From: the human T2T-CHM13v2.0 reference genome, Homo sapiens
Length of the DNA stretch: 64,000 bases
Assembly: GCF_009914755.1 (NCBI RefSeq)
Contig: NC_060938.1
Direction: 5' to 3' (one strand)
Position numbers and translations under genes: made by a program. The notes beneath the pieces are model-generated. The model made no database searches. It worked only from the letters and a program-made list of their open reading frames with translations, and was not told the origin of the DNA. Position 1 is the stretch's first letter; each line of letters opens with the position of its first letter. This document shows, one piece after another, positions 15,366 through 21,256 of the stretch.

Positions 15366-15813
15366 TGTCAGGCCTCTGAGCCCAAGCCAAGCCATCGCAT
15401 CCCCTGTGACTTGCACGTATACGCCCAGATGGCCTGAAGTAACTGAAGAATCACAAAAGAAGTGAATATGCCCTGCCCCACCTTAACTGATGACATTCCA
15501 CCACAAAAGAAGTGTAAATGGCCGGTCCTTGCCTTAACTGATGACATTACCTTGTGAAAGTCCTTTTCCTGGCCCATCCTGGCTCAAAAAGCACCCCCAC
15601 TGAGCACCTTGCGACCCCCACTCCTGCCTGCCAGAGAACAAACCCCTTTGACTGTAATTTTCCTTTACCTACCCAAATCCTATAAAACGGCCCCACCCTT
15701 ATCTCCCTTCACTGACACTTTTCGGACTCAGCCTGCCTGCACCCAGGTGATTAAAAGCTTTATTGCTCACACAAAGCCTGTTTGGTGGTCTCTTCACATG
15801 GATGCGCATGAAA
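15366..15813 (+). promoter_or_regulatory. 5' LTR7 (LTR7up-like); TATA at 15681-15687, ATTAAA at 15750-15755
   Basis: TGTCAGGCCTCTGAGCCCAAG...GCGCATGAAA; two ACAAAAGA copies at 15453 and 15503. Confidence 0.93.
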
Positions 15814-16658
15814 TTTGGTGCGGTGACTCGGATCGGGGGACCTCCCTTGGGAGATCAATCCCCTGTCCTCCTGTTCTTTGCTCCGTGAGAAAGAGCCACC
15901 TACGACCTCAGGTCCTCAGACCAACCAGGCCAAGAAACATCTCACCAATTTCAAATCCGGTAAGCGGCCTCTTTTTACTCTCTTCTCCAACCTCCCTCAC
16001 TATCCCTCAACCTCTTTCTCCTTTCAATCTTGGCGCCACACTTCAATCTCTCCCTTCTCTTAATTTCAATTCCTTTCATCTTCTGGTAGAGACAAAGGAG
16101 ACATGTTTTATCCGTGGACCCAAAACTCCCACGCCCGTCATGGACTGGGAAGGCAGCCTTCCCTTGGTGTTTAATCCTTGCAGGGATGCCTTTCTGATTA
16201 TTCACCCATGTTTCAAAGGTGTCAGACCACGCAGGGACGCCTGCCTTTGTCCTTCACCCTTAGCGGCAAGTCCCACTTTTCTGGGGAAGGCGCAAGTACC
16301 CCAACCCCTTCTCTCCCTGTCTCTACCCCTTCTCTGCTTTTCTGGGGAAGGGGCAAGTACCCCTCAACCCCTTCTCTTTCACCCTGAGTGGCAAGTCCCG
16401 CTTTTCTACGGGGCAAGAACCCCCAATCCCTTATTTCCACGCCCCAACCTCTTATCTCTGTGCCCCAATCCCTTATTTCCGTGTCCCAACCTCTTATCTC
16501 TGCACCCCAATCCCTTATTTCCACGCCCCAACCTTGTATCTCTGTGCCCCAATCCCTTATTTCCACGCCCCAACCTCTTATATCTCTGCACCCCAATCCC
16601 TTATTTCCATGCCCTGACCTCTTATTTCTGCGCCCCATCCCTTATTTCTGCACCCTGA
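15798..16658 (+). CDS. Candidate 286-aa ESRG-like ORF in the HERV-H leader; translation unproven
   Basis: ATG in frame with the 15609..16658 ORF; the peptide (DAHEIWC.DSDRGTSLGRSIPCPP...LVETKETCFI...DWEGSLPLVFN) matches my recollection of the ESRG protein. Confidence 0.3.
   Translation: MDAHEIWCGDSDRGTSLGRSIPCPPVLCSVRKSHLRPQVLRPTRPRNISPISNPVSGLFLLSSPTSLTIPQPLSPFNLGATLQSLPSLNFNSFHLLVETKETCFIRGPKTPTPVMDWEGSLPLVFNPCRDAFLIIHPCFKGVRPRRDACLCPSPLAASPTFLGKAQVPQPLLSLSLPLLCFSGEGASTPQPLLFHPEWQVPLFYGARTPNPLFPRPNLLSLCPNPLFPCPNLLSLHPNPLFPRPNLVSLCPNPLFPRPNLLYLCTPIPYFHALTSYFCAPSLISAP
15816..15833 (+). other. Primer-binding site for tRNA-His
   Basis: TGGTGCGGTGACTCGGAT, 17/18 match to TGGTGCCGTGACTCGGAT, 2 nt after the LTR. 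Confidence 0.92.
15957..15965 (+). promoter_or_regulatory. HERV-H major splice donor CCG|GTAAGC
   Basis: Consensus-like 5' splice site ~145 nt after the 5' LTR, at the usual HERV-H position. Confidence 0.8.
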
Positions 16659-16685
16659 CCTCTTATCTCTGCGCCCCAACCCCTT
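16420..16685 (+). repeat. ~40-bp tandem repeat (alternating ~20-mers) in the HERV-H pre-gag region
   Basis: About six copies of CCCAATCCCTTATTTCCACGCCCCAACCTCTTATCTCTGTG-like units. Confidence 0.9.
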
Positions 16686-16771
16686 TCCCACTTTTCTGGA
16701 AGGTAAGAACCCCTGAACCCCTTCCCTCCATTTCTCTACTCTTTCTTTTCTCTAGGCTTGCTTCCTTCACT

Positions 16772-18030
16772 ATGGGCAATCTTCCACCCTCCATTCCTCC
16801 TTCTACTCCCTTGGCCTGTGTTCTCAAAAACTTAAAACCTCTTCAATTCACACCTGACCTAAAACCTAAATGCCTTATTTTCTTCTGCAATGCCGCTTGA
16901 CCCCAATACAAACTCGACAGTAGTTCCAAATAGCCAGAAAATGGCACTTTGAATTTTTCCATCCTGCAAGATCTAAATAATTCTTGTCGTAAAATAGGCA
17001 AACAGTCTTAGGTGCCTGACGTCCAGGCATTCTTTTACATATCAGTCCCTTCCTAGTCTCTGTGCCCAGTGCAACTCGTCCCAAATCTTCCTTCTTTCCC
17101 TCCCACCTGTCCCCTCAGTACCAACGCCAAGCGTTGCTGAGTCTTTCTAATCTTCCTTTTCTATAGACCCATATGACCTCTCCCTTCCTCCCCAGGCTGC
17201 TCCTCGCCAGGCCGAGCTAGTTCCCAATTCTTCCTCAGCCTCTCCTCCTCCACCCTATAATCTTTTTATCACCTCCCCTCCTCACACCTGGTCCGGCTTA
17301 CAGTTTCGTTCCGTGACTAGCCCTCCCCCTCCTGCCCAGCAACTTACTCTTAAAAATGTGGCTGGAGCCAAAGGCATAGTCAAGGTTAATGCTCCTTTTT
17401 CTTTATCCCAAATCGGATAGCGTTTAGGCTCTTTTTCATCAAATATAAAAATCCAGCCCAGTTCATGACTTGTTTGGCAGCAACCCTGAGACGCTTTACA
17501 GCCCTAGACCCTAAAAGGTCAAAAGGCCGTCTTATTCTCAAAATACATTTTATTACCCAATCTGCTCCCGATATTAAATAAAACTCCAAAAATTAAATTC
17601 CGGCCCTCAAACCCTACAACAGGATTTAATTAACCTCGCCTTCAAGGTGTACAATAATAGAAAAAAGTTGCAATTCCTTGCCTTCACTGTGAGACAAACC
17701 CCAGCCATGTCTCCAGCACACAAGAACTTCCAAACGCCTGAACCGCAGCGGCCAGGCGTTCCTCCAGAACCTCCTCCCCCAGGAGCTTGCTACACTTGCC
17801 GGAAATCTGGCCACTGGGCCAAGGAATGCCCGCAGCCCGGGATTCCTCCTAAGCCACGTCCTATCTGTGTGGGACCCCACTGAAAATCAGACTGTTCAAC
17901 TCACCTGGCAGCCACTCCCAGAGCCCCTGGAACTCTGGCCCAAGGCTCTCTGACTGACTCCTTCCCAGATCTTCTCGGCTTAGCGGCTGAAGACTGACAC
18001 TGCTCAATCACCTTGGAAGCCCCCTAGACC
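16772..18030 (+). pseudogene. gag: HERV-H gag remnant with one intact CCHC zinc knuckle
   Basis: MGNLPPSIPPS start; CYTCRKSGHWAKEC at 17788-17829; many stops and deletions. Confidence 0.85.
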
Positions 18031-20220
18031 ATCACGGACGCCGAGCTTCAGGTAACTCTCACAGTGGAAAGTAAGCCCATCCCCTTCTTAATCAATACAG
18101 AGGCTCCCCACTCCACATTACCTTCTTTTCAAGGGCCTGTTTCCCTTGCCTCCATAACTGTTGTAGGTATTGACGACCAGGCTTCTAAACCTCTTAAAAC
18201 TCCCCAACTCTGGTGCCAACTTAGACAATACTCTTTTAAGCACTCCTTTTTAGTTATCCCCACCTGCCCAGTTCCCTTATTAGGCTGAGACACTTTAACT
18301 AAATTATCTGCTTCCCTGATTATTCCTGGACTACAGCTATATCTCATTGCCGCCCTTCTTCCCAATCCAAAGCCTCCTTTGCGTCCTCCTCTTGTATCCC
18401 CCCACCTTAACCCACAAGTATAAGATACCTCTACTCCCTCCTTGGCGACCCATCATGCACCCCTTACCATCTCATTAAAACCTAATCACCCTTACCCCAC
18501 TCAATGCCAATATCCCATCCCACAGCACACTTTAAAAAGATTAAAGCCTGTTATCACTCACCTGCTACAGCATGGCCTTTTAAAGCCTATAAACTCTCCT
18601 TACAATTCCCCCATTTTACCTGTCCTAAAACCAGACAAGCCTTACAAGTTAGTTCAGGATCTGCGCCTTATCAACCAAATTGTTTTGCCTATCCACCCCG
18701 TGGTGCCAAACCCATATACTCTCCTATCCTCAATACCTGCCTCTACAACCCATTATTCTGTTCTAGATCTCAAACATGCTTTCTTTACTATTCCTTTGCA
18801 CCCTTAATCCCAGCCTCTCTTCACTTTCACTTGGCCTGACCCTGACACCCATCAAGCTCAGCAAATTACCTAGGCTGTACTGCCGCAAAGCTTCACAGAC
18901 AGCCCCCATTACTTCAATCAAGCCCAAATTTCTTCCTCATCTGTTACCTATCTCGGCATAATTCTCATAAAAAAACACGTGCTCTCCCTGCCAATCGTGT
19001 CCGACTGATCTCTCAAACCCCAACACCTTCTACAAAACAACTCCTTTCCTTCCTAGGCATGGTTAGTGCGGTCAGAATTCTTACAGAAGAGCCAGGACCG
19101 CACCCTGTAGCCTTTCTGTCCAAACAACTTGACCTTACTGTTTTAGCCTAGCCCTCATGTCTGCGTGCAGCAGCTGCCGCTGCTTTAATACTTTTAGAGG
19201 CCCTCAAAATCACAAAGTATGCTCAACTCACTCTCTACAGTTCTCATAACTTCCAAAATCTATCTTCTTCCTCATACCTGACGCATATACTTTCTGCTTC
19301 CCGGCTCCTTCAGCTATACTCACTCTTTATTGAGTCTCCCACAATTACCGTTGTTCCTGGCCTGGACTTCAATCCGGCCTCCCACATTATTCCTGATACC
19401 ACACCTGACCCCCATGACTGTATCTCTCTGATCCACCTGACATTCACACCATTTCCCCAAATTTCCTTCTTTCCTGTTCCTCACCCTGATCACGCTGGAT
19501 TTATTGATGGCCTAATCGCCACAAACCAGCAAAGGCAGGTTATGCTATAGTACAAGCCACTAGCCCGCCTCTTAGAACCTCTCATTTCCTTTCCATCGTG
19601 GAATTCTATCCTCAAGGAAATAACTTCTCAGTGTTCCATCTGCTATTCTACTCCTCAGGGATTATTCAGGCCCCCTCCCTTCCCTACACATCAAGCTCGA
19701 GGATTTGCCCCACCCAGGACTGGCAAATTAGCTTTACTCAACATGCCCTGAGTCAGATAACTAAAATACCTCTTAGTCTAGGTAGATACTTTCACTGGAT
19801 AGGTAGAGGCCTTTCCTACAGGGTCTGAGAAGGCCACCGCAGTCATTTCTTCCCTTCTGTCAGACATAATTCCTCAGTTTAGCCTTCCCACCTCAATACA
19901 GTCTGATAACAGACGAGCCTTTATTAGTCAAATGAGCCAAGCAGTTTTTCAGGCTCTTGGTATTCAGTGAAACCTTTATATCCCTTACGGTCCTCCGTCT
20001 TCAAGAAAAGTAGAATGGACTAAAGGTCTTTTAAAAACACACCTCACCAAGCTCAGCCACCAACTTAAAAAGGACTGGACAATACTTTTACCACTTTCCC
20101 TTCTCAGAATCCAGGCCTGTCCTCGGAATGCTACAGGGTACAGCCCATTTAAGCTCCTGTATAGACACTCCTTTTTATTAGGCCCCAGTCTCATTCCAGA
20201 CACCAGACCAACTTAGACTG
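18031..20220 (+). pseudogene. pol: HERV-H pro-pol remnant (protease, partial RT, RNase H, integrase)
   Basis: LINTEA (degenerate DTGA), SPYNSPILPV, LVQDLRLIN, YSVLDLKHAFFTIPL, integrase IQSDN; no YxDD seen, multiple stops. Confidence 0.9.
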
Positions 20221-20792
20221 TGCCCCCAAAAAACTTGTCATCCCTGCTATCTTCTGTCTAGTCATACTCCTATTCACCGTTCTCAACTACTCATACATGC
20301 CCTGCTCTTGTTTACACTGCCGGTTTACACTGTTTTTCCAAGCCATCACAGCTGATATCTCCTGGTGTTATCCCCAAACTGCCACTCTTAACTCTTGAAA
20401 TAAATAAATAATCTTTGCTGGCAGGACTATGCCGAATCTCCTTAGGCACTCTCTAATCAGATATCCTGAGTCGTCCCAATTCTTAGACCTTTTATACCTG
20501 TTTTTCTCCTTCTGTTATTCCATTTAGTTTCCCAATTCATCCAAAACCGTATCCAGGCCATCACCAATCATTCTATATGACAAATGTTTCTTATAACATC
20601 CCCACAATATCACCCCTTACCACAATACCTCCCTTCACCTTAATCTCTCCCACTCTAGGTTCCCACGCCGCCCCTAATCCCGCTTGAAGCAGCCCTGAGA
20701 AACATCGCCCATTCTCTCTCCATACCACCCCCCAAAAATTTTTGCCACCCCAACACTTCAATGCTATTTTGTTTTATTTTTCTTATTAATAT

Positions 20793-20805
20793 AAGAAGGC
20801 AGGAA
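20793..20805 (+). other. HERV-H polypurine tract
   Basis: AAGAAGGCAGGAA immediately 5' of the 3' LTR. Confidence 0.85.
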
Positions 20806-21256
20806 TGTCAGGCCTCTGAGCCCAAGCCAAGCCATCGCATCCCCTGTGACTTGCACGTATACGTCCAGATGGCCTGAAGTAATTGAAGAATCACAAAAGA
20901 AGTGAATATGCCCTGCCCCACCTTAACTGATGACATTCCACCACAAAAGAAGTGTAAATGGCTGGTCCTTGCCTTAAGTGATGACATTACCTTGTGAAAG
21001 TCCTTTTCCTGGCTCATCCTGGCTCAAAAAGCACCCCCACTGAGCACCTTGCGACCGCCACTCCTGCCCGCCAGAGAACAAACCCCCATTGACTATAATT
21101 TTCCTTTACCTACCCAAATCCTATAAAATGGCCCCACCCTTATCTCCCTTCGCTGACTCTCTTTTCGGACTCAGCCTGCCTGCACCCAGGTGATTAACAG
21201 CTTTATTGCTCACACAAAGCCTGTTTGGTGGTCTCTTCACACGGACGCGCATTAAA
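20806..21256 (+). mobile_element. 3' LTR7
   Basis: Direct repeat of the 5' LTR; by eye ~16 substitutions and 2 small indels. Confidence 0.95.

What the first reader, a model, noticed from the sequence alone, without database searches (positions are those of the whole stretch)
15798..16658. A 5'-LTR-only point mutation creates an AUG that opens a 286-aa ESRG-like ORF
Seen: the 3' LTR reads CACACGGAC but the 5' LTR reads CACATGGAT. This CpG transition makes an ATG at 15798 with G at +4. There is no earlier ATG between the TATA box (15681) and this site, so it is the first AUG of an LTR7-initiated RNA. The frame stays open for 286 codons through the PBS, leader and tandem repeat. Knowledge (recalled): the peptide aligns with ESRG/HESRG, an ORF in a different HERV-H copy that starts at a different, more upstream ATG and has SLHTDAHEIW where this copy has SLHMDAHEIW. 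Inference: an independent birth of an ESRG-like protein in the same latent HERV-H leader frame, here with a Pro/Leu repeat tail (NPLFPRPNLLSLCP)n. This suggests a family of de novo HERV-H leader proteins.
Basis: partly seen in the sequence, partly recalled or inferred. Interest (0 to 1): 0.8.

Follow-up and report, generated by a model that had tools for sequence, protein, structure and literature searches.

The report
HERV-H leader ORF opened by CpG decay
The 286-codon reading frame is real and resembles the putative ESRG protein, but it is an ordinary by-product of mutational decay in a stem-cell-active endogenous retrovirus, shared in kind with about 150 other copies in the genome.

Summary
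ATG 15798 lies in U5 of the 5' LTR, where the 3' LTR has ACG. It is the first ATG after the TATA box and opens 286 codons to TGA 16656.

ESRG_HUMAN matches at 82% identity over 196 residues. The match arises because both are the same leader frame of HERV-H, inherited by descent, not two independent births.

The same ATG is present in 156 of 507 5'LTR-PBS junctions in this genome. In an unbiased sample of 27 such copies, 10 open at least 100 codons and 3 open at least 196.

Copies with the ATG do not keep longer frames than copies without it (median 84 vs 106 codons). Diversity among 38 copies shows no codon periodicity (p = 0.71). There is no Pfam match, and the AlphaFold2 mean pLDDT is 34.

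ESRG's own start reads CTG in this genome.

Verdict: a neutral decay product in a transcribed lncRNA locus. Translation is untested and a protein function is unlikely.

The parts
15366..15808 (+). 5' LTR (LTR7, labelled LTR7up2 in print), TG...CA
   Evidence: Direct repeat with 20806-21251, with 15 mismatches and 3 gap columns over 446 columns. Label from the supplement of PMC8912925.
15681..15687 (+). TATAAAA box of the LTR promoter
   Evidence: Read. No ATG lies between it and 15798.
15750..15755 (+). ATTAAA polyadenylation-signal-like hexamer in R
   Evidence: Read. The role is inferred from LTR anatomy.
15798..16658 (+). 286-codon ORF (ATG to TGA) through U5, PBS, leader and tandem repeat
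   Evidence: 82% identical to ESRG_HUMAN over residues 2-196. No Pfam family. Mean pLDDT 34.1.
15798..15800 (+). ATG made by a CpG transition (ACG in the 3' LTR and in most copies); C at -3, G at +4
   Evidence: Genome-wide, 156 of 507 junctions read ATG.
15802..15888 (+). Overlapping short ORF in another frame, with ATGs at 15802 and 15808 (28 and 26 codons)
   Evidence: The 15808 ATG spans the LTR/leader junction and is present in most copies.
15816..15833 (+). Primer-binding site, tRNA-His type, one mismatch to the recalled 18-mer
   Evidence: Read. The motif is recalled, and was found downstream of the U5 anchor in 78 fetched copies.
15903..15905 (+). CGA codon 36, intact here; reads TGA in 16 of 78 copies examined
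15959..15961 (+). Leader splice donor CCG|GTAAGC, exactly 54 codons after the ATG
   Evidence: Read. The same motif sits at the same distance in the ESRG locus. Its use at this locus is not known.
16386..16388 (+). GAG codon 197, where ESRG and nine other copies have the TAG that ends their frame
16421..16685 (+). Tandem repeat, period 42 (6.3 copies), giving the (NPLFPRPNLLSLCP)n tail
16772..16774 (+). gag ATG (MGNLPPSIP...), 974 nt after 15798, so not in the same frame
20806..21251 (+). 3' LTR, with ACG at the position of the 5' ATG

Best explanation
This is a typical, about 5.9-kb HERV-H provirus (LTR7up2-HERVH) that is transcribed in human ES cells. Its leader, between U5 and gag, is pyrimidine-rich and descended from a source sequence in which one frame had no stop for about 196 codons.

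After integration, methyl-CpG decay changed ACG to ATG in U5 of the 5' LTR only. A second substitution left GAG where most copies have the TAG that ends the frame. The CGA at codon 36 escaped the CGA-to-TGA decay seen in many copies.

Together these give a first-AUG ORF of 286 codons. It is one of a population of such ORFs generated by neutral decay, not a selected gene. If ribosomes reach the RNA, the AUG may be used at some level and give an unstructured Pro/Leu/Ser-rich polypeptide or a 54-codon N-terminal piece on spliced RNA. No protein function is expected.

Shown: the anatomy, the mutations, the family counts and the lack of constraint. Taken from print: transcription. Inferred: no selected function.
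For: - Structure and mutations.
- Direction of change: among the 30 closest copies the codon reads ACG 17, ACA 8, ATG 4, AAG 1.
- Genome-wide counts of 5'LTR-PBS junctions: ATG 156 and ACA 105, of 507 matching ACG/ACA/ATG/ATA. The 20-mer with ATG occurs in 550 LTR copies and the ACG version in 915.
- Unbiased ATG sample (first 7 on chr1 and first 20 on chr2-3): ORFs of 10-258 codons, 10 of 27 at >=100 and 3 of 27 at >=196.
- 20 non-ATG copies: median open length 106 vs 84 for ATG copies, Mann-Whitney p = 0.11; >=196 codons in 6 of 20 vs 3 of 27, Fisher p = 0.14.
- Mean diversity by codon position among 38 copies: 0.082, 0.086, 0.095, Kruskal-Wallis p = 0.71.
- Frame breakers are also decay products: 16 of 78 copies stop at codon 36 with TGA.
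- No Pfam family at E <= 1. Composition P 17.5%, L 16.4%, S 9.8%.
- AlphaFold2 mean pLDDT 34.1, with 0 of 286 residues >= 70.
- ESRG, the nearest named relative, shows no conservation and is dispensable (PMC8184003, passages).
Against: - The locus carries the labels transcribed, H3K4me3, TSS, KLF4, NANOG, SOX2, 'wanghigh' (fpkm > 2 in H1) and the top GRO-seq septile (PMC8912925 supplement and methods passages). The AUG therefore sits on an abundant RNA.
- ES-cell HERV-H RNA was reported as over 5 kb with no evidence of splicing (PMC3558390 abstract). That would keep the whole ORF on the transcript.
- ATG exceeds ACA at this CpG (156 vs 105, binomial p = 0.002). The next CpG is balanced (TG 89 vs CA 103; Fisher p = 0.006). 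I could not explain this excess.
- The Markov null makes a 286-codon frame unlikely by composition alone.
- The AlphaFold run used a single sequence, which often gives poor models.
- No translation data could be examined.
Confidence: 0.8

Rival explanations
1. The ORF is translated in pluripotent cells into a functional protein. It would be one member of a family of HERV-H leader proteins that includes ESRG.
For: - 82% identity to ESRG_HUMAN.
- A canonical first AUG.
- A highly expressed locus.
- Reviews call ESRG a human-specific de novo gene (PMC12051474 passage) and cite it as a protein-producing 'ncRNA' (PMC6735797 passage).
- Excess of ATG over ACA at the site.
Against: - No codon periodicity in diversity.
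- ATG copies keep no longer frames than non-ATG copies.
- The tail beyond codon 196 is a variable tandem repeat that other copies read in other frames.
- No domain and no confident fold.
- ESRG is studied as an RNA (PMC9909993 passages) and is not conserved.
- A review states it is unclear whether the ESRG ORF is functional (PMC12228294 passage).
Confidence: 0.04
2. [quoted passage not shown] On this view the ORF is a decayed viral gene piece given a new start.
For: - Jern et al. 2005, as quoted in PMC6995185 (passage), describe a Pro/Ser-rich ORF in the long HERV-H leader.
- The frame is depleted of stops: 2, against 8 and 5 in the other frames.
- It is open about 196 codons in many copies.
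Against: - The phase between the U5 codon and the gag ATG is spread evenly among 73 copies (24, 22, 27). In this copy it is out of frame (974 nt).
- No codon-position signal.
- Most long copies share a TAG at codon 197.
- I could not read Jern 2005, so identity of frame with their ORF is untested.
Confidence: 0.25
3. The AUG matters for the RNA, not for a protein. As a first AUG ahead of the ancestral short junction ORF, it changes ribosome engagement, export or decay of this HERV-H lncRNA.
For: Three AUGs lie within 13 nt in two frames. The ORF ends about 4.5 kb before the 3' LTR on unspliced RNA.
Against: No data on localisation or stability of this RNA were seen. 31% of junctions have the same AUG with no known expression difference.
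Confidence: 0.08

Closest known systems
ESRG / HESRG putative protein (UniProt ESRG_HUMAN, 222 aa; P0050)
   Same: Same HERV-H leader frame downstream of an LTR7 promoter. 160 of 196 aligned residues are identical, E = 7e-106. The splice donor sits at the same distance. Both loci are expressed in ES cells.
   Different: ESRG starts 31 codons upstream in R, at a codon that reads CTG in this genome; 221 of 222 residues otherwise equal the genomic frame. A reviewer's comment in PMC5644247 says ESRG uses a non-canonical start. ESRG ends at the TAG that is GAG here. The chr14 ORF has a canonical AUG in U5 and 90 further codons from the tandem repeat.
HERV-H 'pre-gag' leader ORF (Jern et al. 2005, known to me only through PMC6995185, PMC3253121 and PMC3036903)
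   Same: It lies between the PBS and gag and is rich in Pro and Ser. The variable part of pre-gag that differs greatly among elements (PMC3036903 passage) matches the tandem-repeat tail here.
   Different: Identity of frame was not tested. This ORF is not in frame with gag in this copy, and the phase is not consistent across copies.
MLV glyco-Gag (upstream-initiated N-terminal extension of Gag; recalled)
   Same: Translation would start in the leader upstream of gag in a gammaretrovirus-like element.
   Different: There is no continuity with gag here (stop at 16656, gag ATG at 16772 in another frame). No sequence comparison was made.
Other HERV-H copies with the same U5 AUG (e.g. database ORF P0001, 196 aa; L007, L014, L021, L040, L065, L071)
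   Same: Same start codon position and the same N-terminal sequence type (MDxHEIWC...). 23 of the 120 best database hits begin there.
   Different: Lengths differ (10-347 codons) according to where decay placed stops and indels.

Membership tests
HERV-H provirus (LTR7-HERVH) | Two LTR7 copies flanking an internal region | tested here: met
   15366-15808 and 20806-21251, 96.6% identical. The closest genomic relatives are HERV-H leaders. The published label is LTR7up2.
HERV-H provirus (LTR7-HERVH) | tRNA-His-type PBS just after the 5' LTR, and a gag start downstream of a long leader | tested here: met
   PBS at 15816-15833 (motif recalled). gag ATG at 16772, reading MGNLPPSIP.
ESRG-like HERV-H leader ORF | Significant protein similarity to ESRG_HUMAN in the same leader frame | tested here: met
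   E = 1.8e-91 in the database search. BLASTP 82% identity over 196 residues. Same genomic frame.
ESRG-like HERV-H leader ORF | Same start codon as ESRG | tested here: not met
   ESRG starts 31 codons upstream at a CTG. Here the start is an AUG in U5, and the upstream frame differs because of indels in R.
ESRG-like HERV-H leader ORF | Transcription from LTR7 in pluripotent cells | not testable with these tools
   Taken from print only: supplement labels of PMC8912925 and its methods passages.
De novo protein-coding gene | Enabling mutations identified against a non-coding ancestral state | tested here: met
   ACG to ATG against the 3' LTR and most copies. GAG where ESRG and nine other copies have TAG.
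De novo protein-coding gene | Signature of selection on the ORF | tested here: not met
   No codon periodicity. ATG copies are not longer than non-ATG copies. This is a between-copy test, not an orthologue test.
De novo protein-coding gene | Evidence of translation | not testable with these tools
   No Ribo-seq or MS data are at hand. Searches 'ESRG + Ribo-seq' and 'HERVH + Ribo-seq' gave 6 papers each, and by their titles and abstract starts none addresses leader ORFs (I read passages of three of them).

The most novel reading that the evidence does not exclude
The U5 AUG is used. This abundant, largely unspliced ES-cell RNA would then yield a 286-aa Pro/Leu-rich polypeptide. Together with the other roughly 150 loci that carry the same AUG, HERV-H RNAs would produce a pool of near-identical N-terminal leader peptides (MDxHEIWC...) specific to pluripotent and HERV-H-positive tumour cells. 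These peptides might be visible to the immune system or act like the proposed ESRG protein.
Probability: 0.12. Interest if true: 0.55.

Novelty: new member of a known kind. Interest (0 to 1): 0.22.

Why it matters
It shows how a much-cited 'human-specific de novo gene' type of ORF (ESRG) arises. One retroviral leader frame is open by descent, and recurrent CpG decay supplies an AUG in about a third of copies. That argues for caution in calling such ORFs genes. If translation were shown, the shared 54-codon N-terminus across many loci would be a candidate stem-cell and tumour antigen source.

Tried and rejected
- In frame with gag (glyco-Gag-like): my first reading of the gag ATG position was off by one. 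The distance is 974 nt, not in frame, and the phase is evenly spread in 73 copies.
- Pure composition artefact: rejected as the whole story, because the Markov null gives P = 0.0009-0.006.
- General strand bias as the reason for ATG > ACA: the neighbouring CpG is balanced, so this does not explain it. Four identical junction strings on chr8 show some non-independence.
- Pfam gave nothing.
- The window-wide ATG listing was useless and was replaced by a script.
- Jern 2005 and Takahashi 2020 are not held.
- Long-read hPSC paper PMC12361454: its passages gave no locus-level splicing data.
- A first supplement search with my estimated coordinates found nothing. A broader term found the locus 29 bp away.
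- Target-site duplication: the flanks were read, and no clear duplicate was seen. Not pursued.

Full report
**What is there.** The window holds a 5.9-kb HERV-H provirus on the + strand.
- The 5' LTR is 15366-15808 and the 3' LTR is 20806-21251. They differ by 15 mismatches and 3 gap columns over 446 columns, 96.6% identity.
- After the 5' LTR come a tRNA-His-type PBS (15816-15833), a leader with a GT donor at 15960, a 42-nt tandem repeat at 16421-16685, and the gag ATG at 16772.
- The ORF listing gives an ATG-to-stop ORF at 15798..16658 of 286 aa. It is the longest ORF in the provirus; the next are 138 aa (antisense) and 111 aa.

**The observation.**
- The 5' LTR reads CACATGGATGCGCA and the 3' LTR reads CACACGGACGCGCA. 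Both differences are C>T changes at CpG sites.
- No ATG lies on the + strand from 15600 to 15797, so 15798 is the first ATG after the TATA box at 15681. Its context is C at -3 and G at +4.
- The second transition made another ATG at 15802. Together with the ancestral junction ATG at 15808, it opens a short ORF in another frame that stops at 15886.
- The long frame has an upstream stop at 15555.
- The donor at 15959|15960 falls exactly 54 codons after the ATG.

**Direction of change and frequency.** I fetched the 30 closest leader copies in the same genome, own copy included.
- At the ATG position they read ACG 17, ACA 8, ATG 4 and AAG 1. ATG is therefore derived.
- It is far from unique. The exact 20-mer with ATG occurs in 550 LTR copies, and the ACG version in 915.
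- Restricting to 5' LTRs followed by the PBS, 507 junctions match with ACG, ACA, ATG or ATA. Of these, 156 read ATG and 105 read ACA.

**How long are the frames that this ATG opens?** I used an unbiased sample: the first 7 PBS-bearing hits on chr1 (out of the 30 ATG-bearing LTR copies fetched there) and the first 20 junction hits on chr2-3.
- The ORFs are 10, 29, 35 (x7), 62, 84 (x6), 96, 125 (x4), 132, 133, 135, 201, 247 and 258 codons. That is 10 of 27 at >=100 and 3 of 27 at >=196.
- Scaled to 156 copies, this suggests about 58 (95% CI 30-90) and about 17 (4-45) loci respectively.
- Among the closest copies, the three other ATG-bearing ones give 196, 196 and 347 codons. The chr14 ORF is thus in the long tail but is not the longest.

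**Why the frame is open.**
- The leader is 66% pyrimidine. The frame has 2 stops between 15798 and gag, against 8 and 5 in the other two frames.
- A first-order Markov null gives P = 0.006 for >=196 codons and P = 0.0009 for >=286 codons. Composition alone is not enough.
- The frame is inherited. It is open >=193 codons in 13 of the 30 closest copies and >=196 codons in 9 of the 47 unbiased copies.
- Nine of the 78 copies examined end at the same TAG, codon 197. The chr14 copy has GAG there (16386-16388) and reads on for 90 codons through the repeat.
- Sixteen of 78 copies stop at codon 36 with TGA, where this copy keeps CGA (15903-15905). The same decay process that makes the ATG also breaks the frame elsewhere.

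**Tests for selection.**
- Diversity among 38 aligned copies is 0.082, 0.086 and 0.095 at codon positions 1, 2 and 3 (Kruskal-Wallis p = 0.71; p = 0.83 without CpG columns).
- Twenty copies without the ATG (the first non-ATG junctions on chr1) have open lengths with median 106 codons, against 84 for the 27 ATG copies (Mann-Whitney p = 0.11). Frames of >=196 codons occur in 6 of 20 versus 3 of 27 (Fisher p = 0.14). Gaining the AUG has therefore not preserved the frame.
- One result points the other way. ATG exceeds ACA (156 vs 105, p = 0.002), while the next CpG 4 nt downstream is balanced (TG 89 vs CA 103). The 2x2 Fisher test gives p = 0.006.
- Part of that excess may be non-independence: four identical junction strings lie on chr8 at 7.5-12.8 Mb. 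I could not resolve it further.

**ESRG.**
- The database search returned ESRG_HUMAN (P0050, 222 aa) at E = 1.8e-91. In all, 459 hits had E <= 0.001 among the 8000 candidates scored, and 120 were listed.
- BLASTP gives 160 of 196 identities.
- I found the ESRG locus through the junction pattern (chr3) and fetched 1951 bases. Its genomic frame equals ESRG_HUMAN at 221 of 222 residues.
- The only difference is residue 1, which is CTG in this genome. [quoted passage not shown] 2013 (passage).
- The ESRG ORF is therefore the unspliced leader frame, with the same donor 54 codons after the ACG. It ends at the common TAG.
- The two ORFs are alike because the two leaders are copies of one retroviral sequence.
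- Twenty-three of the 120 listed database ORFs start at the same AUG as the chr14 ORF.

**What print says.**
- Takahashi et al. found no evidence of conservation and found ESRG dispensable (PMC8184003, passages).
- Li et al. 2023 study ESRG as an RNA binding MCM2 (PMC9909993, passages).
- A review lists ESRG as a de novo gene (PMC12051474, passage).
- The HERV-H leader is called pre-gag. Jern et al. 2005 reported in it an ORF placed like MLV glyco-Gag and rich in Pro and Ser (quoted in PMC6995185, passage). I could not read Jern 2005.
- In my data the phase between the U5 codon and the gag ATG is 24, 22 and 27 over 73 copies (5 of 78 had no gag motif in reach). I therefore cannot say that this frame is their ORF.

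**Expression.**
- The supplement of PMC8912925 (files supp5 and supp6) lists chr14_38190638_38196525. Its labels are LTR7up2, transcribed, k4me3, TSS, KLF4, MED1, NANOG, SOX2, FOXA1, wanghigh and GRO1of7.
- Its methods define 'highly transcribed' as fpkm > 2 in H1 and describe GRO-seq septiles (passages).
- The LTR sequence printed there matches the window and ends CACATGGATGCGCATG, so GRCh38 also has the ATG.
- Santoni et al. report ES-cell HERV-H RNA as over 5 kb with no evidence of splicing (PMC3558390, abstract). Other work describes spliced HERV-H RNAs (PMC3253121; ESRG exons, PMC6298018).
- The splicing state at this locus is unknown.

**The product, if any.**
- There is no Pfam family at E <= 1.
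- Composition is Pro 17.5%, Leu 16.4%, Ser 9.8%.
- AlphaFold2 on the single sequence gives mean pLDDT 34.1 and pTM 0.20, with no residue >= 70. This is weak evidence, since single-sequence models are often poor.

**Verdict.** The interpretation as an independent birth of an ESRG-like protein is not supported. The ORF is best read as a neutral decay product on a transcribed HERV-H lncRNA, one of many of its kind. Translation remains untested.

Noticed in passing
L061 (G000:C3:54672300-54674250, minus strand), ESRG locus: The annotated first residue of ESRG_HUMAN (M) corresponds to a CTG codon in this genome, close to the expected LTR7 transcription start. The other 221 residues are identical to the genomic frame, and the stop-to-stop frame holds no ATG.
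   Followed up: partly
Genome-wide 5'LTR-PBS junctions: ATG exceeds ACA at the AUG-making CpG (156 vs 105), while the next CpG is balanced (89 vs 103). The cause is unresolved.
   Followed up: partly
window 16222-16638 (-): A 138-aa antisense ORF (GWGVEIRDWGTEI... repeats) lies inside the same tandem repeat. It looks like a by-product of the repeat.
   Followed up: no
window 21124-21130 (3' LTR) and database protein P0010: The CpG next to the TATA box reads TATAAAATGG in the 3' LTR and TATAAAACGG in the 5' LTR. In another copy an ATG at that place starts a 383-aa database ORF in the same leader frame, although it lies upstream of the expected transcription start.
   Followed up: no
L065 (G000:C2:64260553-64261702): Another copy with the same AUG opens 201 codons. 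It probably corresponds to the entry LTR7up2_chr2_64252414_64257646, which is also labelled transcribed and wanghigh in the PMC8912925 supplement. The correspondence rests on position only.
   Followed up: partly
G000:C8 at 7.48, 11.57, 12.24 and 12.76 Mb: Four identical ATG-bearing junction strings look like segmental duplicates, so counts of copies are not counts of independent mutations.
   Followed up: no
window 15366-21251 relative to SSTR1 (32603): The ES-cell-active provirus lies about 17 kb upstream of SSTR1 in the same orientation. The hub table lists RefSeq enhancer features over both LTRs. No read-through or chimeric transcript was looked for.
   Followed up: no
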